From Candidatus Dojkabacteria bacterium (lineage in GTDB: Bacteria > Patescibacteriota > Dojkabacteria > B142 > OLB20), in the NCBI GenBank assembly GCA_046753765.1, contig JBHHUN010000006.1:130-64129 (forward strand): a DNA stretch of 64,000 bases, written 5' to 3'. Positions 29,691 to 59,215 of the stretch are shown here, piece by piece. The first letter of the stretch is position 1. Each line of letters opens with the position of its first letter. The notes under the pieces were generated by a model, which did no database searches, was not told the origin of the DNA, and was given only the letters and a program-made list of their open reading frames with translations. The position numbers were made by a program, and so were the translations under genes.

Positions 29691-30299
29691 ATGGCAGAAA
29701 AAGAATCTGACGGTGAAGCTACCGGTCCTTCAGACGTAACAAAGACCACAAGTTCCAATGACAATACGAAGAAGGTGATAATCATTGTAGTTGTAGCCCT
29801 TATTGTTTGTGCGGTAGTTTGTGGTGTACTTACTTTGGGGAGTGGGCTGTTGGTTCAGCAGGGTGCCAATCAGTTAGTAAATGAGCTAGAGGAGGGATTA
29901 AAGCCGTTTGAAGATAATCTTAAAACTTACGAGGACGATTTCCGAGACCTTAATGGAACGGATGGTGATCTTGAACTTTTTCCCGGTATGACAGGGGGAG
30001 AGTGGCCGGCAGATATGCCTTCAGATGTGCCAGTATACAAGCATGGTAGTATCAGGCTTGCTAGTACAGATAACGAATCAAATATTGTGAGCGTGCTCTT
30101 ATATGAATTTTCTCTTGACGCGTTCGAAGACTACAAAAGTGACCTTGAAGCTGCGGGCTGGACAATCGACTCAGATGTCGACTCAGATGTCGACTCAAGA
30201 GTTGACTATCTCACAGCCTCTAAAGGAAACTTAGAGCTACAATATTCAGTGTCTATTGCTGATGATTCGGGGTTTGTTACTGTGAGGATAGGAAACTAA
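29691..30299 (+). CDS. Membrane-anchored acidic hypothetical protein
   Basis: N-terminal TM (VIIIVVVALIVCAVVCGVLTL), acidic ectodomain, internal DSDVDSDVDS micro-repeat. Confidence 0.45.
   Translation: MAEKESDGEATGPSDVTKTTSSNDNTKKVIIIVVVALIVCAVVCGVLTLGSGLLVQQGANQLVNELEEGLKPFEDNLKTYEDDFRDLNGTDGDLELFPGMTGGEWPADMPSDVPVYKHGSIRLASTDNESNIVSVLLYEFSLDAFEDYKSDLEAAGWTIDSDVDSDVDSRVDYLTASKGNLELQYSVSIADDSGFVTVRIGN
30170..30200 (+). repeat. Short tandem repeat (tcagatgtcgac x2.5) encoding DSDVDSDVDS
   Basis: Direct repetition visible in the sequence. Confidence 0.6.
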
Positions 30300-30601
30300 G
30301 CGTAGTACTTAGGTTGAGCTATCTTAAGGCCCTTGACCCGCTTGAAGTCCCTTGGGTTGATCGTTACCAGTGGTACTCCGATGTCTAGTGCAGTACTGGC
30401 GATCATGATGTCGGCAGTTTTTGGATTACGGAGGCTGTTTTTCTTTCGTGATCTCAGAGTTTTTGCACATAGTTCTCCCATAGATTGGTTCAACGGGATT
30501 ATTTCGAACATCTCAATGTCTTCTTTAAGGAAAGCAAGATACTTCTGATTTCTGGATAGAATATAGATCAGGATATTTGTGTCTAGTAAAAGGTCAACCA
30601 T
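30296..30601 (-). CDS. PIN-domain (VapC-like) toxin
   Basis: MVDLLLDTNILIYIL...TADIMIASTALDIGVPLVTINPRDF, the PIN acidic-residue pattern; start at the second Met (30601). Confidence 0.7.
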   Translation of the reverse strand: MVDLLLDTNILIYILSRNQKYLAFLKEDIEMFEIIPLNQSMGELCAKTLRSRKKNSLRNPKTADIMIASTALDIGVPLVTINPRDFKRVKGLKIAQPKYYA

Positions 30602-30933
30602 CTGTCTGGAACAGATCGTCAAACAAACCCCTGGGTCTCTCTATGTCGAGAGGTGAGCTGCTACTGAAGCTCAAAAAGTTTACGGCCAGTGTTAGATTGC
30701 TCGGCTAAGCTGATGACGAGCTCATTCTTGTCGTAACTTCTAGTTCTGGCTGCATATTGAAGTAATAACCAAGTAATATTAACGGTCTGTATGACAAGTT
30801 GTCAGGCAAGGGTTTGGCGAAGGAAAAAATGCCATGAAGCGAGCAGACACCGATTACACAGGTTTGATATAATTGACACACGTCAATACATCGTGTCTGT
30901 CTTGGTTGAGGCTGGGCGGATTACCACTTTTAA

Positions 30934-31022
30934 GGAGAGGTGGCTGAGTGGTCGAAAGCGATGGTTTGCTAAATCATTGTACGGGTCACACCGTACCGCA
31001 GGTTCGAATCCTGTCCTCTCCG
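30934..31022 (+). tRNA. tRNA-Ser (anticodon GCU), class II with long variable arm
   Basis: GGAGAGG acceptor stem and its CCTCTCC complement, D-arm GCT/AGC, anticodon loop TTGCTAA, variable-arm hairpin GTACGG/CCGTAC, T-loop GGTTCGAAT; CCA not encoded. Confidence 0.85.
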
Positions 31023-31186
31023 CTCAGTTCCCAATAAAATTGGGGAATGAGCCGAGACAAAAAAAGTTAAGAACCACATCATGCCGACGGCTCGCACCCA
31101 AACTAACGGGGCTACGAGTTAATGTTTAGCGCTATCTACAAGAAATTGCTAGACTTGAACTATCTTTAAGTTAGTCCAAAGCTTCT

Positions 31187-31405
31187 ATGAAATATCTTGT
31201 TGCAATAATTATTGGAATCATCGTGCTGTTTGCTGCAGCTCTTGCTGCGTTGGCGTTTGTTGCAGCCCCCGGAGCTGATTCTGGTACGAACCCTGATCCG
31301 GAACCTGTAGCTTGCACTCTCGAAGCAAAACTGTGCCCCGATGGCAGCTCTGTAGGAAGAAGTGGTCCCGACTGCGAGTTTGACCCGTGCCCTGACGATT
31401 TATAA
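31187..31405 (+). CDS. Small secreted/membrane Cys-rich peptide (72 aa)
   Basis: Hydrophobic N-terminus then PDPEPVACTLEAKLCPDG...GPDCEFDPCPDD with four Cys; the alternative minus-strand ORF 31171..31416 overlaps and is judged less likely. Confidence 0.4.
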   Translation: MKYLVAIIIGIIVLFAAALAALAFVAAPGADSGTNPDPEPVACTLEAKLCPDGSSVGRSGPDCEFDPCPDDL

Positions 31406-32173: not shown

Positions 32174-32830
32174 GTGGCTAAAAAAGGGTTCAATTTACTT
32201 AGACCACAAATAGAACCACCCACAGTCTGGACTAAGGTGTACGACTACATCGTTGGTTCAGCCAGAGTGATTGTGATACTGGTTGAATTAGTTGTTGTGT
32301 TGGCCTTTGTAGTTAGGTTGGTTGTGGATGTTCAAAGCAAAAACCTGGATGAGGAGATTGTGGTAAAAGAGGCTATTGTGAAGAGCTTTGCCCAGGCCGA
32401 AGCGCGTTACGTGCGTATTCAAAACAAGACTGGAGCGTTCAACGCTATCTGGACAAATTCCCCAATATATATCCAGCTATACTCCGAGATAAATGGGTAT
32501 ATCCCAAACAGCGCAAGAGAGATGACAATACAGATAGACAATGACAAGATCTTCATTACAGGGATCGCAATCACATCGGAGATAGGTGAAATGGAGAATG
32601 CCTTCAAAAACTCGGACACATTTTATAAACAGGAATTGGACCAACTTGAGACAGAGGGTGTCTCTGACGATACACTTGGAAACTTCACTCTCAGGGCGCA
32701 GCTTAATGAACTACCTATGCGTGAGCTGATTGACCAGACTGTTCTGGACCAACCAGAAGTAATTCCAACTCCTACACTCTTCGAAGATAATTCTACTGTA
32801 TTACCAACTCTCACTGACACGATCCAGTAA
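32174..32830 (+). CDS. PilN-like type IV pilus assembly protein (bitopic)
   Basis: N-terminal FNLL motif then TM; periplasmic region with KIFITGIAITSEIGEMENAFKNSDTF matching the PilN pattern. Confidence 0.45.
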   Translation: MAKKGFNLLRPQIEPPTVWTKVYDYIVGSARVIVILVELVVVLAFVVRLVVDVQSKNLDEEIVVKEAIVKSFAQAEARYVRIQNKTGAFNAIWTNSPIYIQLYSEINGYIPNSAREMTIQIDNDKIFITGIAITSEIGEMENAFKNSDTFYKQELDQLETEGVSDDTLGNFTLRAQLNELPMRELIDQTVLDQPEVIPTPTLFEDNSTVLPTLTDTIQ

Positions 32831-32838
32831 TAAATGAT

Positions 32839-33456
32839 ATGGCACAAAGACGAATCGAAATAAAAAAGATACTAGCGACAACACAGGGGAGGGCGTACGC
32901 AGTTGTTGGGGTTACAATCTTTTTAATTGTACTTATGTTCTTTCTCGCGATTAGGCCGGCATTTCTGTCTATCACGAACCAGAATACGCAAAATGATGAG
33001 AAGCGGGAGTATCTTGAGGAGCTTACCGACAAAGAGAACACGTTAAAAGCTCTTGCTAAGCAAGAGATAGAGCTGCAGAGTCAGATAGATCTCATGAATG
33101 AGTATTTACCTGACAAACGTAATGACGAGTACTTCGCTGCGAATATTGCTGCCATCGCTGACCTGTACGGTGTAGATGTCCTCGTGATTAACTTCAATAA
33201 AAATGAGGTGATTACTGATGCGGAGTTGATCCAGTACACTCAGATGCTCTCCGTCCCGTTCAGAATCTCTGTGAAGGGCAATCTGGCTGATTTACAGTTG
33301 TTCCTTGGTCATCTTGAGAATTTTCCGGCACCTGTAAGAGTTGAAGGTATGGCATACTCAGACAAAGAGCAGGAGATCTTTGTTGAAGGGACGGGAGTGA
33401 AGGCATTTACACTCGACATTGATGCGGTATATTATTTCTGGAGATTCGGAGTATGA
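32839..33456 (+). CDS. PilO-like type IV pilus assembly protein
   Basis: TM, coiled coil (ENTLKALAKQEIELQSQIDLMNEYLP), then a VPFRISVKGNLADLQLFLGHLENFPAPVRVEGM PilO-like C-terminal domain. Confidence 0.45.
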   Translation: MAQRRIEIKKILATTQGRAYAVVGVTIFLIVLMFFLAIRPAFLSITNQNTQNDEKREYLEELTDKENTLKALAKQEIELQSQIDLMNEYLPDKRNDEYFAANIAAIADLYGVDVLVINFNKNEVITDAELIQYTQMLSVPFRISVKGNLADLQLFLGHLENFPAPVRVEGMAYSDKEQEIFVEGTGVKAFTLDIDAVYYFWRFGV

Positions 33457-33725
33457 ACAGATCGTGGATAGCATTAATAGTTATAGCAGTCGTCACTATG
33501 CTTGGCATTATTGGGTATGAGTTTTTTCAATCACTCAGCGGGGCTAACGTAGAGTTTAGAAGGGGGATCCAAACGACCGAATTGCCGGCAGATCTTGGGA
33601 CGAAGCAACTGGGCTTTGTAGGGTTTCTGGAAGAAAGCGTTCTTGTAAAAGACGCTGAGCTTGAAGGCGAGACAACAGAACAGCTAACGCTCCCTGAAGG
33701 TACACAAGAAGGTGCAAATCCATAG
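33453..33725 (+). CDS. Small single-TM protein (possible pilus-assembly accessory)
   Basis: 90 aa, one N-terminal TM, overlaps the upstream gene by 4 nt. Confidence 0.35.
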   Translation: MNRSWIALIVIAVVTMLGIIGYEFFQSLSGANVEFRRGIQTTELPADLGTKQLGFVGFLEESVLVKDAELEGETTEQLTLPEGTQEGANP

Positions 33726-33736
33726 TATAATTCACC

Positions 33737-34660
33737 ATGAGTAAATCAAAGAACAAAACATCAGATGGTGGTATTAATATTTCACTCGAGAATATTGGCC
33801 TTGCTGAGCTTGTTAACCCCATTGCAATATTGATAGGAGGCATTCTTATTGCAGCAGCAATCTTTTATGGGTCAGCAGAGCTGCGACCCGAGGCATCACG
33901 TGTGAAAACCAACTGTTCGGAAACCGCGCCACTTTCAGAAGACTGCCTGGTCGAATATGCTCAAGAACTAAGTCTGGATATACCTAGGTTCGAGACCTGT
34001 CTGACTGAAGGCGAAAAGGGTGATCAGGTCTCTTCGGAGATTGAGAGCGCCACCAGCCTGAGCCTTACCGGAACACCGACATTGATTCTTGCAACTGGGA
34101 GAGGTAATGAGGTGAGAGGATTTAACCTGGGAGCTGTAGATACAATCGAGAATTTCAACGAGCTTTATGATCGCGTAACTAACGGGTCAATTGAAGACGC
34201 ACAAAGTTATTGGGTAGATGTTCAGCTTGATCAACTCAAAAGCTTCAGGTCAGAGGTAAGAGATTTTTTTAAGTCAAAGGATGGAGGAGGATTAAAAGGT
34301 GCAAAATTGGACAAAGAGGTTTCTGCGTTCATGACAGACCAGAAACGAAGTGTCGAAGCACACAGTGAACTAAAAGACTTCCCGCTAGGGGAGGGGATTT
34401 CGAAGGGCGAAGGGGAGGTAGTGCTTATGGAATTTAGTGACTACGAATGTCCGTTTTGCGCTGAGTTTTCAGCGGGCATAGGGAATCAAATCATCGAAGA
34501 ATATGTTAACAAGGATAAGCTAAGATTTGTCTTCAGAGATTTCCCTCTTGAGGATATTCACCCCAATGCCAGGCTGGCTGCTGAAGCTGCGCGATGCGCT
34601 GGTGATCAAGAGAAGTACTTCGAGTACCATGATCTGCTATTTGGAATTGAACCTGGATAA
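33737..34660 (+). CDS. Membrane-anchored DsbA-like thiol:disulfide oxidoreductase with apparently permuted domain order
   Basis: TM near residue 30. Residues 60-170 resemble the DsbA C-terminal half (LGLD-type helix, cis-Pro loop TGTPTLIL). Residues 230-307 resemble the DsbA N-terminal half (VVLMEFSDYECPFCAEF CxxC, RFVFRDFPL, HPNARLAAEAARCA). Confidence 0.7.
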   Translation: MSKSKNKTSDGGINISLENIGLAELVNPIAILIGGILIAAAIFYGSAELRPEASRVKTNCSETAPLSEDCLVEYAQELSLDIPRFETCLTEGEKGDQVSSEIESATSLSLTGTPTLILATGRGNEVRGFNLGAVDTIENFNELYDRVTNGSIEDAQSYWVDVQLDQLKSFRSEVRDFFKSKDGGGLKGAKLDKEVSAFMTDQKRSVEAHSELKDFPLGEGISKGEGEVVLMEFSDYECPFCAEFSAGIGNQIIEEYVNKDKLRFVFRDFPLEDIHPNARLAAEAARCAGDQEKYFEYHDLLFGIEPG

Positions 34661-34697: not shown

Positions 34698-35183
34698 ATG
34701 AGAAACACTATCCTGATCGTAGTAACAACATTCTTTTTCACTGCTTTGTTTCTGCATGTTTTCAATAATGTGAGCCCATGGAATACTGATGCAGTCCAAC
34801 TGGCAATCGAACGTTACGGTCTTGAAACTCAAGATAACTTCACTGAGTTTGTAGATCAGGCAATGGAATTCGGGCTCATCTGGAGCCTGATTGATATCAA
34901 GAACCTGCTGCTACTGTTAGCACTACTTGGTGGTGCAGTCGTTTCGGGATTTGCGGTGCTACACCTCATTATTGATAAGCTATTTGTTAAGAAATTCTAT
35001 GAGAAGCCAAATGTTTCTGTTGCGTTCAGAAGGGGTGTCCTGGTCTACCTTGTGATCGTTAGTCTGATTTTGCTGAGACTGATCGCCGGATTGTTTTGGT
35101 ATAATGCACTCGCGGTGTTGATCTTGGCAGTGTCGATTGAATATGCCTTCGTAAACTATTTTAAAGATAGAGGGAATGAATAA
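34698..35183 (+). CDS. Hypothetical four-TM membrane protein (no Cys; not DsbB/VKOR)
   Basis: 161 aa with four hydrophobic helices. Confidence 0.45.
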   Translation: MRNTILIVVTTFFFTALFLHVFNNVSPWNTDAVQLAIERYGLETQDNFTEFVDQAMEFGLIWSLIDIKNLLLLLALLGGAVVSGFAVLHLIIDKLFVKKFYEKPNVSVAFRRGVLVYLVIVSLILLRLIAGLFWYNALAVLILAVSIEYAFVNYFKDRGNE

Positions 35184-44887: not shown

Positions 44888-46771
44888 CTATGCTTCAGGG
44901 TCAAGGTTTCCCATGCTTCTCTCTTCAAATTGCTGTTTTTTGACCCTTTTTCGTTCTCTAATTAGCACATATTTCCCTCCTACGTCCCAAAGCTTTTCAC
45001 CAAGGTCTACATGAAGTCCGAATCTAAAGATCGTTGCCCCAATAGCCAGGAGAATAATGGCAAAGATAATGCGATCGTCCACGTCACTAATGAGGGCTGT
45101 ATCGGGTGTGCAGAATGGGGTAATTGTGGCTGTGTCCCGTCCACGTTCTGTGCCGCCTTCTGTCACAATTACAGTATTCTCAAAGGTCTGGTTGTATTGC
45201 GACTGGGTAAATTCAACATCATAATTTAACGTAACTGATGAATTTCCATCGATATCAATATCGCTCCAGGTAATAACACCGTTTGAGAGCATCCCCCCGA
45301 ATGTGATACTGGTAAGAATTACCTGGTTGTCACTAACACCACTATCGAGTGTGTCGGTAACATTAAATGTTCGTGTCTGTGAGTCGGGATTAGTAACTGT
45401 AATCGAGTAGGTCGCAACAGATGTACTGTTACCACTGCCACAAGATTGTGAGGCAGTTTTAACCACGGTGACTGCATCTATTGGGGTGCACATGTCAGCC
45501 AGACATTCAGAAGGTGTGTCTATGCACATGTTTAACTGACATACTCCTGTTCCGTCACTGTCGTCGTCTGTGCAGGTGTGGTCCTGCTCACAGGCATCTG
45601 CTCCTTGTGCGGGGTCACATGGCTCTCCGCATGCTGTTATTACAAATGTTGGCGTTGGGGATGGCGTTGGTGTTGGGCTCACAAGTGGCGTACACATATC
45701 AGACTCGCACAGTGATGGATCACCGATACACATATCGAATTGGCACACACCCATACCATCACTATCATCGTCAATACACTGATGATCCTGCTCGCAGGCG
45801 TTAGGTCCACCGGCGGGGTCGCAAGGCATGCCACACACTGCAGGTGTTGGTGAAGGAGTGGGTGTTGGCGTTGGACTGATCACTGCCTCGGGTACCCAGG
45901 TCCAGTTCATGGAAACGTTTGCCAGATTACCCACACGATTCAAGTATAACGACTCGCTGAACTGGTTGCCCTCCTGGTGGTTGTTTCTTCCTACGTACGT
46001 GGTTTGTGGCGAATTTGGAAACCGCGATGCCATTGTTTCAAACGTAACGTCATTCTGGTCGAAGACAACAACGGTATTTTGATTGTCACTGGTGATGTTT
46101 GTTGAGTCGATCTTAAAATAGCCACCACCTTTTGGGTCATCGGCATCGAATGTAAATCTTGCCCCGGAGCCAAAATCGTTAAACCATCCCTGTGGGAAGT
46201 AGGGAACAAACCGATAGTATTCAAGTGTGTCATCTGCAGTACGGGAGACTGTGGCGTGAGGACGCGCCTGATTGTAAGCAGCTGTGATGCACTGCACCTG
46301 GCCAAGGTATCCAAGAGCAACAATGTTGTATGTTGTGTTAGTAGTTTCTGTGCAACTGGTCCTGTCCAACGAAGGTGTACCGCCAAACTGCATTGCACGA
46401 AACGTGACACCGTAGATCTGCATACCCCAGGTAGCCTCAAGATGCTCTGCGGTGAGTGTGCCACAGCGATCACCGCCACCACCGTCGTCCATATGCGCTC
46501 TGCCATTTGTATTGGTCACGAAGTAAAGTGCGGGGGCAGCTCCACGACCGTTGTAGTTTTGCTCTTTAGCGAGCATGTCTTTTCCGAGCGGTGTAAAAAC
46601 CGAGATGACCATTCCCTCAAGGGCGGTATCTGGAGTTGCAAGACCATCTATCTCTGCCCTGACTCTCATCTGAGCGTTGCCTGGTTGAAATGCCGAAGCA
46701 GTAGAGGAGAATAGGGCGAAACTAATAAGTGCTATGAGTGAACCGATTGTAATGTAAACTAGTCTTCTCAC
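44888..46771 (-). CDS. Large secreted/cell-surface protein with Cys-rich tandem modules, Pro/Thr linkers, a DUF11-like domain and a C-terminal TM anchor
   Basis: Signal peptide; two roughly 45-aa Cys-rich repeats (CG.PCDPA.G..ACEQDH.C.DDDSDG.GVCQ..MCI..PS.C..DMCTP) separated by SPTPTPSPTP linkers; C-terminal hydrophobic anchor IIFAIILLAIGATIF. Confidence 0.6.
   Translation of the reverse strand: MRRLVYITIGSLIALISFALFSSTASAFQPGNAQMRVRAEIDGLATPDTALEGMVISVFTPLGKDMLAKEQNYNGRGAAPALYFVTNTNGRAHMDDGGGGDRCGTLTAEHLEATWGMQIYGVTFRAMQFGGTPSLDRTSCTETTNTTYNIVALGYLGQVQCITAAYNQARPHATVSRTADDTLEYYRFVPYFPQGWFNDFGSGARFTFDADDPKGGGYFKIDSTNITSDNQNTVVVFDQNDVTFETMASRFPNSPQTTYVGRNNHQEGNQFSESLYLNRVGNLANVSMNWTWVPEAVISPTPTPTPSPTPAVCGMPCDPAGGPNACEQDHQCIDDDSDGMGVCQFDMCIGDPSLCESDMCTPLVSPTPTPSPTPTFVITACGEPCDPAQGADACEQDHTCTDDDSDGTGVCQLNMCIDTPSECLADMCTPIDAVTVVKTASQSCGSGNSTSVATYSITVTNPDSQTRTFNVTDTLDSGVSDNQVILTSITFGGMLSNGVITWSDIDIDGNSSVTLNYDVEFTQSQYNQTFENTVIVTEGGTERGRDTATITPFCTPDTALISDVDDRIIFAIILLAIGATIFRFGLHVDLGEKLWDVGGKYVLIRERKRVKKQQFEERSMGNLDPEA
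45484..45901 (-). repeat. Intragenic tandem repeat (two roughly 135-bp units) encoding Cys-rich modules and PT linkers
   Basis: Near-identical DNA and protein segments visible by eye. Confidence 0.5.
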
Positions 46772-57247: not shown

Positions 57248-59215
57248 TTAGTATTTGAAGACGAGTACTGCGTAGGGAGCAATGACCTCGATTGGAATCC
57301 CGTATTTGAAATACTTGAAGAGGCAAGTTTTCTCTGGAGTAAACGTTTCCTGGTAGTGAGTCCTGCCGCTCCCAGAGTATTCAAAGCTGTCACTGTTGAG
57401 AATCAACTTATGCTCAGTTTGCACCACAGTTGGTACCGTGAAATCTGTAGTCAAGATAGATGAGATGTTTATGACAATCAGAAACCCATGTTTATCTTTG
57501 GGGTCGGCACTCCTTTTAATAACCAACGTCTTTGATGCTTCATCTAGATTGATATACTGACGTTTATCTGTATTGACTGGCCAGAACGCCTCATCTTCCA
57601 TAGTCTCGTTGATGCATCTTTTGAAATTCAACATCCCTCTGATCGCTTCAGTTTGCTCAAGAAACCAATGAATTGTAGAGTCATGTTCAAAAGTTCCAGT
57701 CTGCAGAAGAAAGGTTTGTAATAAGTCTAGTGTTCGTCCTTCTGCTCCATAGCTAATCAATGCCTCCATAACTTTTATCTTTCCGATTGCATGGAAGTGC
57801 AGTTCGGGATTATCGAGAAGTAATGCATCATATGCGTAAGAACCGGTAGCTCTACCCGTCATCAATCCAGCAGCTGCATCATGGTTATGAAAATCGGCAA
57901 CAGTAGAATTTGATTTCCCCCATTCTTTCTCTTCGGCAATATCCTTAAACTTCCAAATACTTACCTCGTCTGATGACATAGGCATTAATTTAGAATGAAA
58001 GTAGTAAGTCAGGCGGGACGATGTATAGGCGGTTGCTCCCAGAGCCTGTTTGTGGCTTTTAAGTGGAGCGACCAGCAAGTGTGCATTGTTCTTATAAAAA
58101 TAGTGAGACTCGTAATTGAGTAGAGTTTGTGGAGCGTACGAATACACGGTCTCGGCGAAAGTTCGCATAAATTCTCTGGCGTGAGGCCTCCCTTCCCCTT
58201 GTCCTGCAGCTCCCTTACGCAGTATTCCATCTACGTTATCTATACGAAAGCCATCAACGCGATAATGCTTAATGAAGTGGATTGCAGAGTCTGTGACGAA
58301 TCTTCGGATATTCTCATCAGATATGCGGTAGCGTTTTGTTCCCCAAGATGTCCTCTCTCCCAAAAATACTTGCTGGTCATCATTATCTTTCCAGTGGTGA
58401 ATTCCTATGTCTTCGGCCGGGATATTAAAGATGGTGAAGTCTTTGTATGGCGCGTGCGAGATCACCAGATCGAGTATGACTGCGATGCCATGTTTATGGA
58501 ATGTATCAATCATTCTGGTAAACTCATCGGGGTCCCCCCAATAGTCATTAATAGAATAGAGAAAGGGGACAAGGTAGCGCATGCTCCACTTTCCTCCGTC
58601 GATAGATCTTGCAACAGGCAGAAACTGAATAGTGTTAAATCCAAGGTCCTTAATCTTTTTAATCACACCGCTCTCAGTTATGAAGCGGTAAGAGTCTGAA
58701 GTATCAATCTCCCAACCAAGTTTTCCGGACTTAGATCTAAAGTGAGTAATTAGTCCTGGCAGATCAGTCTGAAGTATCCTGGTAGACCTCTTTAGCTTAT
58801 CCGGGGGATTATGCCTAAGCTGGTACGTCCCCGGATCGTCGTAATCCCAAAAGACAGAATTACCTTTATTATCAAAAAAGACACTCGCTGGATCGCGGAG
58901 ATGTACACCATTAACCAGGAATAGATAAGGCGTCTTATGCTTTATCTTTCCTTCGCTCACCTTAAGGGTGAAAAAGGTTGAAGTCTTGTCGGGTTTCAGT
59001 GTGTAGTTTCTGCCGCTTGTCTTTCCCCAATCGTTGAATGGTCCTACAAGGGTTATGTGGGTGAATTTCTGTTTAACGTACAATTTAAATTCAACTGTTT
59101 TCGCCTTGCCGTTTTGATACCTCTTGGTCACTTGTACACCCAAAAGCTGCCTAAACTTCTTTATGTCTTTTTTAGGCTTTTGTCCGGCGAGACTCTGCCA
59201 CTGATAGTCATGCAT
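57248..59215 (-). CDS. GH13-family alpha-glucan-active enzyme with N-terminal CBM48-like domain (branching-enzyme-like)
   Basis: GH13 regions: VILDLVISHA (I), GFRIDNVDGI (II), AEDIGIHHW (III-like), FHNHDAA (IV); N-terminal E-set/CBM48-like THITLVGPFNDWG. Confidence 0.65.
   Translation of the reverse strand: MHDYQWQSLAGQKPKKDIKKFRQLLGVQVTKRYQNGKAKTVEFKLYVKQKFTHITLVGPFNDWGKTSGRNYTLKPDKTSTFFTLKVSEGKIKHKTPYLFLVNGVHLRDPASVFFDNKGNSVFWDYDDPGTYQLRHNPPDKLKRSTRILQTDLPGLITHFRSKSGKLGWEIDTSDSYRFITESGVIKKIKDLGFNTIQFLPVARSIDGGKWSMRYLVPFLYSINDYWGDPDEFTRMIDTFHKHGIAVILDLVISHAPYKDFTIFNIPAEDIGIHHWKDNDDQQVFLGERTSWGTKRYRISDENIRRFVTDSAIHFIKHYRVDGFRIDNVDGILRKGAAGQGEGRPHAREFMRTFAETVYSYAPQTLLNYESHYFYKNNAHLLVAPLKSHKQALGATAYTSSRLTYYFHSKLMPMSSDEVSIWKFKDIAEEKEWGKSNSTVADFHNHDAAAGLMTGRATGSYAYDALLLDNPELHFHAIGKIKVMEALISYGAEGRTLDLLQTFLLQTGTFEHDSTIHWFLEQTEAIRGMLNFKRCINETMEDEAFWPVNTDKRQYINLDEASKTLVIKRSADPKDKHGFLIVINISSILTTDFTVPTVVQTEHKLILNSDSFEYSGSGRTHYQETFTPEKTCLFKYFKYGIPIEVIAPYAVLVFKY

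What the first reader, a model, noticed from the sequence alone, without database searches (positions are those of the whole stretch)
33737..34660. DsbA-like oxidoreductase with swapped domain order (apparent circular permutation)
After an N-terminal membrane anchor, residues about 60-170 read like the C-terminal half of DsbA: the helical-domain motif around LSLDIPRFETCL, the cis-Pro loop LTGTPTLILA, and a closing beta-strand and helix. Residues about 230-307 then read like the canonical N-terminal half: the first beta-strand VVLMEFSDYE, the CPFC active site, RFVFRDFPL and HPNARLAAEAARCA. The protein ends there. The thioredoxin-fold elements are all present but in permuted order, joined by a linker of about 60 aa. 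The gene follows PilN/PilO-like genes, which is consistent with a pilin disulfide-oxidase role.
Basis: partly seen in the sequence, partly recalled or inferred. Interest (0 to 1): 0.65.

Follow-up and report, generated by a model that had tools for sequence, protein, structure and literature searches.

The report
Naturally circularly permuted DsbA oxidoreductase
This gene encodes a membrane-anchored DsbA-type disulfide enzyme whose two halves are in swapped order yet are predicted to form one normal fold; the arrangement is conserved in many uncultured Patescibacteria, arose at least twice, and I found no published description of it.

Summary
ORF 33737..34660 (+, 307 aa; NCBI MFQ5492961.1, Candidatus Dojkabacteria) matches DsbA/Thioredoxin_4 profiles in two out-of-order pieces. 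Residues 65-146 are the C-terminal half and residues ~189-302 the N-terminal half with CPFC. The two pieces abut at one breakpoint. Rejoining them in silico gives a single full-length match.

AlphaFold2 gives one compact domain (pLDDT 95.8, pTM 0.90). The only PDB chain aligned over its full length is 1UN2, the laboratory-made circular permutant of E. coli DsbA (Q100/T99). The natural breakpoint lies in the same alpha3/alpha4 loop.

It is not an assembly artefact. About 20 Dojkabacteria-type clusters, at least 32 Microgenomates-type clusters and 17 clusters of a third type share the order.

The third type groups with normal-order proteins (NJ bootstrap 100/100) and never with the other permuted types. 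So permutation happened at least twice.

The Dojkabacteria type adds a conserved 58-residue helical hairpin at the old termini and an extra Cys pair at the new N-terminus.

The likely function is extracytoplasmic disulfide formation. The pilin link is weak.

I found no literature on a natural permuted DsbA. I rate it a new variant of a known kind, of moderate to high interest.

The parts
33737..34660 (+). Whole gene: membrane-anchored, circularly permuted DsbA-like (Thioredoxin_4) oxidoreductase, 307 aa
   Evidence: ORF. Pfam hits in permuted order. Identical to NCBI MFQ5492961.1, 'DsbA family protein [Candidatus Dojkabacteria bacterium]'.
33737..33871 (+). Residues 1-45: Lys-rich cytoplasmic tail (MSKSKNK) and one transmembrane helix (about 22-45). 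Inferred signal anchor, N-in and catalytic domain outside.
   Evidence: AF2 helix 22-45 followed by a disordered stretch 46-57. There is no Cys for a lipobox. Topology is inferred from the positive-inside rule.
33914..33946 (+). Residues 60-70: extra cysteine pair C60-x9-C70 at the new N-terminus of the fold, specific to the Dojkabacteria type
   Evidence: C60 is conserved in 96% and C70 in 100% of 24 Dojkabacteria-type sequences. The pair is absent from the Microgenomates type. A disulfide between them is inferred, not shown.
33929..34174 (+). Residues 65-146: C-terminal half of a DsbA fold (helices alpha4-alpha6 of the helical insert, cis-Pro loop, two strands, last helix)
   Evidence: Matches nodes 172-254 of the canonical-homologue HMM, DSBA profile positions 114-176 and E. 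coli DsbA residues about 116-176. AF2 elements H68-77, H82-90, H95-107, E115-120, E125-132, H137-149.
34070..34078 (+). G112-T113-P114: cis-Pro loop motif of thioredoxin-fold enzymes
   Evidence: Invariant in all 44 aligned permuted proteins. The cis conformation itself is not testable here.
34190..34363 (+). Residues 152-209: two long helices (152-179, 188-209) forming a hairpin that joins the old C- and N-termini. Present only in the Dojkabacteria type.
   Evidence: AF2 secondary structure with pLDDT above 90. About as conserved as the C-half: 0.50 vs 0.55 mean frequency of the commonest residue. The Microgenomates type has a short linker of about 20 aa instead.
34367..34642 (+). Residues 211-302: N-terminal half of a DsbA fold (strand beta1, CPFC helix alpha1, strand, RDFPL..IHP motif, helices alpha2-alpha3). 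The protein ends 5 residues later.
   Evidence: Thioredoxin_4 profile positions 14-87. Nodes up to 167 of the canonical HMM. 37% identity to C. diphtheriae DsbA 4PWO residues 75-151.
34448..34459 (+). C238-P-F-C241 active-site motif
   Evidence: Codons tgt ccg ttt tgc read directly. C238 and P239 are invariant and C241 is in at least 90% of 44 sequences. The closest solved relative, 4PWO, has the same CPFC.
33998..34000 (+). C88 (FETCL), inferred structural disulfide partner of C287
   Evidence: Invariant in 44 of 44 permuted proteins. Also conserved in normal-order homologues (consensus 'FkeCLdsg'). The pairing is inferred.
34595..34597 (+). C287 (AARCAG), inferred partner of C88. The bond would tie the C-terminal segment to the N-terminal segment next to the new chain ends.
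   Evidence: Invariant in 44 of 44. Consensus 'AEAArCAGdq' in canonical homologues.
34698..35183 (+). Context: 161-aa cysteine-free multi-pass membrane protein of unknown family, conserved directly downstream in Dojkabacteria
   Evidence: 44% identity to the gene in the same position in L001. The same gene is at L006 5879-6364. No Pfam hit. With no Cys it cannot be a DsbB/VKOR-type reoxidase.
32174..33725 (+). Context: PilN-like, PilO-like and a 90-aa single-TM ORF directly upstream. Not shown to be functionally linked.
   Evidence: PilO 29.1 bits (above cutoff) and PilN 18.9 bits (below cutoff). Synteny is only partly conserved.

Best explanation
The gene encodes a genuine, naturally circularly permuted member of the DsbA/MdbA/BdbD (Pfam Thioredoxin_4) family. 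A single N-terminal transmembrane anchor is inferred to place it outside the cytoplasmic membrane.

The chain starts in the helical insertion domain, at the equivalent of E. coli DsbA helix alpha4. It runs through the cis-Pro loop (T113-P114), the last strands and the last helix. It then crosses the position of the old termini through a conserved 58-residue helical hairpin. It continues with strand beta1, the CPFC active-site helix, the next strand and helices alpha2-alpha3, and stops. The two halves pack into one ordinary DsbA fold. That packing is predicted by the model, not shown experimentally.

Inferred function: C238/C241 exchange disulfides with secreted or surface proteins, as in the closest solved relative, C. 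diphtheriae DsbA/MdbA, which has the same CPFC motif. The enzyme would be reoxidised by a VKOR/DsbB-type partner encoded elsewhere.

The invariant C88-C287 pair probably forms a structural disulfide clamping the two chain ends. C60-C70 probably caps the new N-terminus.

The permutation moves the membrane tether from the thioredoxin-domain side to the tip of the helical domain, which by my recollection of the E. coli DsbA structure is far from the active site. Chemistry should therefore be unchanged while orientation to the membrane changes.

Inferred origin: internal tandem duplication of the domain (TM-N1C1-N2C2), followed by in-frame loss of N1 and truncation of C2. Such events happened at least twice in Patescibacteria in the same alpha3/alpha4 loop.
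For: Permuted order with a clean breakpoint:
- Pfam and a PDB profile search. In the latter, profile positions 212-304 match 4PWO residues 67-157, positions 72-143 match 4PWO residues 171-236, and positions 77-142 match E. coli DsbA residues 116-176.
- Custom HMM: residues 65-146 on nodes 172-254 and residues 189-302 on nodes 52-167. The de-permuted sequence gives one hit of 194 bits on nodes 88-248.

One compact fold:
- AF2 of residues 58-307 gives pLDDT 95.8 and pTM 0.90. The full-length model gives 88.3 and 0.77.
- In Foldseek against the PDB, only 1UN2 (engineered cpDsbA Q100T99) aligns over 245 columns (TM 0.54 on the target). Normal-order DsbAs align over only 84-90 columns.

Conservation:
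- 20 Dojkabacteria-type clusters at 36-45% identity and more than 80% coverage, and at least 32 Microgenomates-type clusters.
- Catalytic and structural residues are invariant.
- The arrangement occurs in GTDB species genomes of Dojkabacteria, Microgenomates and Daviesbacteria, and in a bin labelled Saccharibacteria.
- There is a second, independently assembled member of this protein's cluster.

Independent origins:
- The third permuted type plus normal-order CPR proteins form a clade with bootstrap 100/100. All permuted types together get 0/100.
- Each half alone gives the same picture.
- The TM anchors of the third type and of its normal-order relatives are visibly similar.

Duplication substrate:
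- Proteins with 2 to 6 or more tandem DsbA domains are abundant.
- Some tandem domains have Microgenomates-type permutants as their closest relatives, at up to 60% identity.

Oxidase-like features:
- CPFC and Thr-Pro as in 4PWO.
Against: - No experiment supports any of this. Fold, disulfide pairing and topology are predictions.
- I could not read model coordinates, so intra-domain contacts, the C88-C287 and C60-C70 distances and a permutation-aware superposition were not measured.
- The Foldseek alignment to 1UN2 has a high rmsd (9.8 A over 245 columns with gaps) because of the hairpin.
- No VKOR/DsbB-like partner was found in the window or within 5 kb of nine related loci. The redox direction (oxidase, isomerase or reductase) is therefore open.
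- For the Dojkabacteria type itself, no close normal-order or tandem relative was found: identity to every other group is at most 0.43. Its own origin is unresolved.
- The tree is neighbour-joining on 168 columns with limited sampling.
Confidence: 0.82

Rival explanations
1. The swapped order is an assembly or annotation artefact: a chimeric contig, or a local rearrangement at about 34.3 kb.
For: The window comes from a metagenome-assembled genome, where local mis-joins do occur. No read data were available.
Against: The same order and the same stop position occur in dozens of distinct 90%-identity clusters from independent assemblies and sources. They also occur in GTDB genomes and in a second assembly of this same cluster. 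Composition is flat across the gene. The reading frame is uninterrupted.
Confidence: 0.01
2. It is a decaying remnant of a tandem DsbA-DsbA gene, with the first N-half and second C-half lost, and is non-functional.
For: Tandem DsbA-DsbA proteins match it as C-half of domain 1 plus N-half of domain 2. That is how such a remnant would look.
Against: Active-site CPFC, the GTP cis-Pro loop, RDFPL..IH and both structural Cys are invariant across 44 sequences that share only about 37% column identity. The membrane anchor is kept. The linker hairpin is conserved. AF2 gives a very confident single fold. This is the pattern of long-term purifying selection.
Confidence: 0.03
3. The two halves do not pair within one chain. 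They pair between chains, as a domain-swapped dimer or oligomer, with the long helical hairpin as the oligomerisation arm. This would give an isomerase-like multivalent enzyme, as in DsbC/DsbG/ScsC/BcfH.
For: The conserved hairpin has no obvious role in a monomer. The second hairpin helix and the adjoining region align weakly with the N-terminal helical regions of oligomeric ScsC, BcfH and DsbG in the PDB profile search (4xvw, 7jve, 2h0i).
Against: The monomer model is compact with pTM 0.90. The Microgenomates-type permutants have only a ~20-aa linker and no hairpin, yet the same order. The engineered permutant 1UN2 keeps the global DsbA fold according to its PDB title. No multimer prediction could be run.
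Confidence: 0.1
4. The fold is as described, but the enzyme is a reductase or isomerase, or is dedicated to one pathway (for example copper or cytochrome handling), rather than a general disulfide-forming oxidase.
For: No oxidising partner was found nearby. Thioredoxin_4 relatives in the PDB list include the ScsC and copper-resistance proteins. The extra C60/C70 pair could be redox-active.
Against: The best solved matches are DsbA-type enzymes with the same CPFC and Thr-cisPro (4PWO, 7UNN, BdbD, alpha-DsbA1). That these act as oxidases is from my recollection of the literature, not from a tool result.
Confidence: 0.2

Closest known systems
Engineered circularly permuted E. coli DsbA, cpDsbA_Q100T99 (PDB 1UN2), from the random-permutation work of Hennecke, Sebbel and Glockshuber 1999 (cited in PMC3281007 and PMC13552848)
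   Same: Same connectivity: the chain starts at helix alpha4 of the helical domain and ends after alpha3, with the old termini joined. It is the only PDB chain that Foldseek aligns over the whole model (245 columns, TM 0.54 on the target). The profile mapping puts the natural breakpoint at about DsbA residues 99-104.
   Different: That protein is man-made, soluble and periplasmic, with a CPHC site. By my recollection it has a 5-residue linker. The window protein is natural and membrane-anchored, has CPFC, belongs to the Thioredoxin_4 branch (13% identity to 1UN2) and joins the old termini with a 58-residue conserved helical hairpin.
Corynebacterium diphtheriae DsbA/MdbA (PDB 4PWO/4PWP) and its paralogue TsdA (7UNN)
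   Same: Closest solved relatives by sequence: 37% identity over the N-half, the same CPFC motif and the same GTP cis-Pro loop. All are Thioredoxin_4-type DsbA-like enzymes. By my recollection they are membrane-tethered extracytoplasmic oxidases of a monoderm bacterium.
   Different: They have normal domain order. Only one half at a time can be aligned: 84-87 Foldseek columns, or two out-of-order HMM stretches.
Normal-order single-domain and tandem multi-domain DsbA proteins of Patescibacteria, DPANN archaea and Chloroflexota (for example P0068, P0269-P0271, P0046)
   Same: Same family, same motifs (EFSDYxCPFC, RDFPL..IHP, AAEAARCAGDQ, F..CL, GTP). In Microgenomates the TM anchor motif is also similar.
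   Different: Order is N-half then C-half, once or repeated 2 to 6 or more times. The window protein has exactly one N-half and one C-half, in reverse order.
DsbB versus VKOR, the membrane partners of DsbA-like proteins
   Same: [quoted passage not shown] This is a precedent for permutation inside the same pathway.
   Different: They are a different fold (four-helix membrane bundle) and a different protein. No such gene was found in this window.

Membership tests
DsbA-like / Pfam Thioredoxin_4 (PF13462) thiol:disulfide oxidoreductases | Significant match to the family profile above the curated threshold | tested here: met
   77.4 bits against a cutoff of 23.2, E=1.8e-21. DSBA PF01323 scores 39.8 bits against 25.6.
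DsbA-like / Pfam Thioredoxin_4 (PF13462) thiol:disulfide oxidoreductases | CxxC active site at the start of helix alpha1 | tested here: met
   C238-P-F-C241 sits at the start of AF2 helix 239-257. It is conserved.
DsbA-like / Pfam Thioredoxin_4 (PF13462) thiol:disulfide oxidoreductases | cis-Pro loop facing the active site | tested here: inconclusive
   The G112-T113-P114 motif is invariant and aligns with the family's GTP. Peptide-bond geometry and proximity could not be read because no coordinates were available.
DsbA-like / Pfam Thioredoxin_4 (PF13462) thiol:disulfide oxidoreductases | Thioredoxin fold with an inserted all-helical domain, forming one globular unit | tested here: met
   AF2 pLDDT 95.8 and pTM 0.90 with the expected elements. 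All top Foldseek hits are DsbA-family structures.
DsbA-like / Pfam Thioredoxin_4 (PF13462) thiol:disulfide oxidoreductases | Canonical sequential order: beta1-CxxC helix-beta, then helical insert, then cis-Pro strands and last helix | tested here: not met
   The order is reversed around a breakpoint inside the helical insert. For this reason I file it as a permuted variant and not an ordinary member.
DsbA-like / Pfam Thioredoxin_4 (PF13462) thiol:disulfide oxidoreductases | Thiol-disulfide exchange activity and an oxidising redox potential | not testable with these tools
   This needs biochemistry or complementation.
DsbA-like / Pfam Thioredoxin_4 (PF13462) thiol:disulfide oxidoreductases | A reoxidising partner (DsbB or VKOR) in the genome | tested here: inconclusive
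   None was found among the CxxC-containing ORFs of the 64-kb window or within 5 kb of nine related loci. Whole genomes could not be scanned.
Circular permutants of DsbA with termini in the alpha3/alpha4 loop (topology of 1UN2) | New N-terminus before alpha4, new C-terminus after alpha3, old termini covalently joined | tested here: met
   HMM breakpoint at nodes 167|172. Mapping to E. coli DsbA residues 116-176 for window residues ~79-144 places window helix 68-77 on DsbA ~105-114. Full-length Foldseek alignment only to 1UN2.
Type IV pilus assembly gene cluster (as an accessory pilin oxidase) | Conserved co-location with pil genes across relatives | tested here: not met
   In Dojkabacteria, pilN/O are nearby but separated by an AP-endonuclease gene or lie on the other strand. 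Microgenomates-type genes lie between pth and NUDIX or other genes. The window has no prepilin motif.
NCBIfam NF041057 Rcas_1661 family thioredoxin-like (seleno)lipoprotein | Score above the curated cutoff | tested here: not met
   71.6 bits against a cutoff of 190. There is no lipobox Cys.

The most novel reading that the evidence does not exclude
Natural selection has repeatedly re-made DsbA by circular permutation in Patescibacteria, in three or more independent events. Each time the chain was opened in the same alpha3/alpha4 loop that laboratory random permutation found permissive. In these lineages the permuted form would be the main or only extracytoplasmic disulfide catalyst. Re-siting the membrane tether on the helical domain, plus the hairpin in Dojkabacteria, would be adaptive, for example for docking to a membrane partner or for oligomerisation, rather than neutral.
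Probability: 0.25. Interest if true: 0.75.

Novelty: new variant of a known kind. Interest (0 to 1): 0.6.

Why it matters
DsbA is a classic model both for oxidative protein folding and for engineered circular permutation. From recollection of Hennecke et al. 1999 (a paper I could not read here), more than fifty active laboratory permutants were described. I found no report of a natural one in the searchable literature.

- **Natural counterpart of the engineered protein.** This is a conserved natural family whose chain break falls in the same loop as the crystallised engineered variant 1UN2. It arose at least twice. That makes it a clean natural test of the duplication-deletion route to permutation, because normal, tandem and permuted forms coexist in related organisms.
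- **Annotation.** Pipelines label these proteins simply "DsbA family" or "thioredoxin domain-containing". Domain tables show two partial hits that could be mistaken for fragments.
- **CPR biology.** It identifies the likely extracytoplasmic disulfide catalyst of several lineages and shows that its membrane tether is placed differently from all characterised DsbA-like enzymes.
- **Pathway symmetry.** The membrane partners DsbB and VKOR are themselves thought to be circular permutants of each other.

Tried and rejected
- **Ancestry from tandem proteins.** BLAST of each half against the two domains of 40 tandem DsbA proteins gave no consistent "C-half like domain 1, N-half like domain 2" signal. 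No direct ancestor of the window's type was identified.
- **Apparent 1.5-domain intermediates.** P0058, P0065, P0023 and similar proteins turned out to be gene fragments cut at contig ends. P0066 and P0048 are full two-domain proteins whose first active site has degenerated. None is a true intermediate.
- **Representative search.** The search of 1.8 billion representatives with the permuted profile was dominated by proteins with 3 to 7 or more DsbA repeats. It could not be used to count permuted members.
- **First tree.** The first NJ tree, without the normal-order relatives of the third type, could not say whether the permuted types share an origin. This was resolved only after the second homologue search.
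- **Redox partner.** The search for a VKOR/DsbB partner in the window and in nine loci found nothing.
- **Pilin substrate.** The prepilin motif search of the window found nothing.
- **Rejected family.** The NCBIfam Rcas_1661 selenolipoprotein family scores far below its cutoff.
- **Literature.** Searches for a natural permuted DsbA, a permuted thioredoxin-like oxidoreductase, or DsbA in the CPR returned only engineered-permutant citations and the DsbB/VKOR permutation paper.
Full report
**What is there.** GC content and skew run smoothly across it. The protein is identical to NCBI MFQ5492961.1, [quoted passage not shown]. Its 90% cluster has a second member from an independent Logan assembly.

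**The order really is swapped.**
- Pfam Thioredoxin_4 (E=1.8e-21) matches residues 227-302 to profile positions 14-87 of 165. Pfam DSBA (E=5.3e-10) matches residues 61-129 to positions 114-176 of 191.
- A profile of 44 permuted relatives, searched against PDB sequences, hits every DsbA-like structure in two out-of-order stretches. For C. diphtheriae DsbA (4PWO), profile positions 212-304 match chain residues 67-157 and positions 72-143 match chain residues 171-236. For E. coli DsbA, profile positions 77-142 match residues 116-176.
- I built an HMM from 20 normal-order single-domain homologues. The native protein matches as residues 65-146 on nodes 172-254 and residues 189-302 on nodes 52-167. 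The two pieces abut at one breakpoint, with nothing lost or duplicated.
- When I rejoined the halves in silico (residues 210-307 followed by 58-150), the sequence gave one continuous hit on nodes 88-248 at 194 bits.
- The same breakpoint (nodes about 167-182) is seen in a Daviesbacteria relative (P0108) and in two further relatives, L036 and L084.

**One fold, not two fragments.**
- AlphaFold2 with a 44-sequence alignment gave pLDDT 88.3 and pTM 0.77 for the full chain.
- For residues 58-307 it gave pLDDT 95.8 and pTM 0.90.
- Element order in the full-length model is: TM helix 22-45; a disordered tether; three helices (68-77, 82-90, 95-107); two strands (115-120, 125-132); a helix (137-149); two long helices (152-179, 188-209); strands 213-216, 221-223 and 228-234; the CPFC helix (239-257); a strand (262-268); and two helices (278-289, 294-301).
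- In Foldseek against the PDB, normal-order DsbA structures (4PWO/4PWP, 7UNN, 3F4R, 3EU3/4) align over only 84-90 columns, which is one half.
- The single chain aligned over the whole model is 1UN2, "circularly permuted CPDSBA_Q100T99": 245 columns, probability 1.00, TM 0.54 normalised to the target.
- maps window residue ~79 to DsbA residue 116. That puts window helix 68-77 on DsbA ~105-114 and the first folded residues on DsbA ~97-104.
- The natural break therefore lies in the alpha3/alpha4 loop of the helical insert, the same loop as the engineered Q100/T99 break. The helix numbering of E. coli DsbA is from my own knowledge.

**Not an artefact, and not rare.**
- In the first homologue search, 20 clusters of about 300 aa (36-45% identity, more than 80% coverage; Dojkabacteria where named) have the cis-Pro motif before the CxxC and end just after "YHDxLF".
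- So do at least 32 clusters of about 245 aa, with about 30% identity in the best local alignment. One is named Daviesbacteria. They end "NQxxIF".
- In an alignment of 44 such proteins the following are invariant: F85, C88, G112-T113-P114, F233-S234-D235, C238-P239, R267-D268, P270-L271, I274-H275, A284-A285-R286-C287, Y294, H298 and F302.
- A scan of GTDB species genomes found the arrangement in two Dojkabacteria, a "Patescibacteria group" MAG, a Microgenomates MAG, a Daviesbacteria MAG, a bin labelled Saccharibacteria (L036) and a bin labelled Gammaproteobacteria (L084).
- A second homologue search started from L084 found 17 more permuted clusters of a third type, ending "..NTKSNGxG[VIL]". 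It also found 101 normal-order proteins that reach 70-81% identity to L084 in the best local alignment, which covers one half (about 35-48% of the query).

**How it arose.**
- I de-permuted all permuted proteins, aligned them with normal-order and tandem domains to the same HMM (168 columns) and ran neighbour-joining with 100 bootstraps.
- The Dojkabacteria type is monophyletic (100) and so is the Microgenomates type (100).
- The third type groups with its normal-order relatives (100). A clade of all permuted forms was never recovered (0). Dojkabacteria plus Microgenomates types together got 1.
- Each half analysed alone gives the same picture. The third type plus its normal-order relatives scored 46/50 with the N-half and 27/50 with the C-half.
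- Mean identity of the third type is 0.56 to those normal-order proteins, against 0.35 and 0.44 to the other permuted types.
- The TM anchors of the third type and its normal-order relatives are plainly similar, for example ILVGAVIISIAILIHGGYIRIKG against VLVGAVLISVSILLHGGIIRIKG.
- The order has therefore changed at least twice in this family, each time in the same loop.
- The raw material is abundant. Proteins with two to at least six DsbA domains in tandem dominate the strongest hits among 1.8 billion representatives. Several CPR/DPANN-like tandem proteins (P0044, P0049, P0056, P0345) have Microgenomates-type permutants as their nearest non-tandem relatives, at up to 60% identity.
- This fits the classical route: duplication to TM-N1C1-N2C2, in-frame loss of N1, and truncation of C2. 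That route is inferred, not demonstrated.
- For the window's own Dojkabacteria type no close normal-order or tandem relative was found (identity to other groups is at most 0.43). Whether it shares an event with the Microgenomates type is open.

**Features special to the window's type.**
- *Hairpin.* The old termini are joined by two long helices (152-179 and 188-209) rather than a short linker. Across 24 Dojkabacteria-type sequences this segment is about as conserved as the catalytic C-half (0.50 vs 0.55), with a conserved GG.L.G turn. It is likely to matter, but I cannot say for what. Helix 2 aligns weakly with the pre-beta1 region of normal-order homologues and with the N-terminal helical regions of ScsC, BcfH and DsbG. 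I keep oligomerisation as a rival.
- *Six conserved cysteines*. C238 and C241 are the active site. C88 and C287 are conserved in both permuted and normal-order relatives. They probably form the helical-domain disulfide known in some DsbA-like proteins, such as Wolbachia alpha-DsbA1 C97-C146. The equivalence is inferred from alignment offsets and from my own knowledge. In the permuted chain that bond would tie the C-terminal segment to the N-terminal one, right beside the new ends. C60 and C70 (C-x9-C) occur only in the Dojkabacteria type and sit at the new N-terminus.

**Context.**
- In the window the genes run PilN-like (below the Pfam cutoff), PilO-like (above the cutoff), a 90-aa TM ORF, the permuted DsbA, a 161-aa Cys-free membrane protein, MetRS and a TatD-like gene. 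Gaps range from -8 to +37 nt.
- The DsbA, 161-aa protein, MetRS string is conserved in two other Dojkabacteria (44% identity for the membrane protein).
- There, an AP-endonuclease gene separates pilN/O from the DsbA gene, or pilN/O lie on the other strand.
- Microgenomates-type genes lie in unrelated neighbourhoods.
- The window has no prepilin motif. No VKOR/DsbB-like gene was found in the window or near nine related loci.
- The pilin-oxidase idea therefore remains an untested possibility resting on adjacency in a compact genome.

**Likely mechanism.**
- *Shown:* family membership by profile, the permuted order, and conservation of catalytic motifs.
- *Predicted:* the single DsbA fold and the membrane anchor.
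- *Inferred:* the Lys-rich N-terminus stays inside and the domain faces outward. C238/C241 exchange disulfides with exported proteins, as in the closest solved relatives (C. diphtheriae DsbA/MdbA with the same CPFC, BdbD, alpha-DsbA1). Reoxidation is by a VKOR/DsbB-type enzyme encoded elsewhere. The new termini lie at the far tip of the helical domain (my recollection of the E. coli DsbA structure), so catalysis should be unaffected. The tether now leaves from the helical domain instead of the thioredoxin domain, which changes how the active-site face is presented relative to the membrane.

**What is known.**
- The literature library returned only the engineered DsbA permutants (Hennecke et al. 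1999, cited in PMC3281007 and PMC13552848) and the proposal that DsbB and VKOR are permutants of each other (PMC4555120).
- Nothing was found on a natural permuted DsbA or on DsbA in CPR bacteria.
- Databases name these proteins "DsbA family protein" or "thioredoxin domain-containing protein".
- I rate it a new variant of a known kind.

**Limits.**
- There are no experiments and no access to model coordinates.
- The phylogeny is neighbour-joining only.
- Whole genomes were not searchable for partners or paralogues.

Noticed in passing
window 31187..31405 (+): 72-aa ORF with an N-terminal hydrophobic signal or anchor and four cysteines packed into its last 30 residues (CTLEAKLCPDGSSVGRSGPDCEFDPC). 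It looks like a small secreted disulfide-rich peptide and could be a substrate of a DsbA-like enzyme. No Pfam hit.
   Followed up: no
window 34698..35183 (+); also L001 7033..7512 and L006 5879..6364: 161-aa cysteine-free multi-pass membrane protein with no Pfam family. It is always directly downstream of the permuted DsbA gene and upstream of MetRS in three Dojkabacteria (44% identity). Function unknown. It could be a partner or merely syntenic.
   Followed up: partly
proteins P0121-P0265: Very long proteins (600-1200 aa) carry 4 to 11 matched half-domain stretches, which corresponds to arrays of up to about six tandem DsbA domains. They are the strongest hits in the 1.8-billion representative library. 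Such multi-DsbA arrays are unusual in their own right.
   Followed up: no
L084 (contig CAZZEB010000002.1): A bin labelled 'uncultured Gammaproteobacteria' carries a permuted DsbA. Its TM anchor and its relatives, where named, are Daviesbacteria or Patescibacteria. The taxonomic label of the bin may be wrong.
   Followed up: no
window 30296..30622 (-): A 108-aa PIN-domain protein (PF01850, E=1.8e-7), possibly a VapC-type toxin. No obvious antitoxin ORF was examined.
   Followed up: partly
window 30934..31023 (+): The only Rfam or ARAGORN RNA hit in the 64-kb window is a 90-nt tRNA-Ser (GCT). The 112-aa mechanical ORF at 30791..31129 overlaps it and is probably not a gene.
   Followed up: yes
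window 32174..33725 (+): A PilN-like, PilO-like and 90-aa TM ORF trio stands alone, with no pilM directly upstream and no pilin-motif gene in the window. The PilN assignment is below Pfam's cutoff.
   Followed up: partly
window 58127..58699 (+) and 46256..46714 (+): Two cysteine-rich ORFs (190 aa with 8 Cys; 152 aa with 14 Cys) have no Pfam match. I did not check whether they are real genes.
   Followed up: no
P0048 (536 aa, Nanoarchaeota) and P0066: Tandem DsbA proteins whose first domain has lost the second active-site cysteine or the whole CxxC (CPFS in P0048, DPFT in P0066). This shows divergence of one copy after duplication.
   Followed up: no
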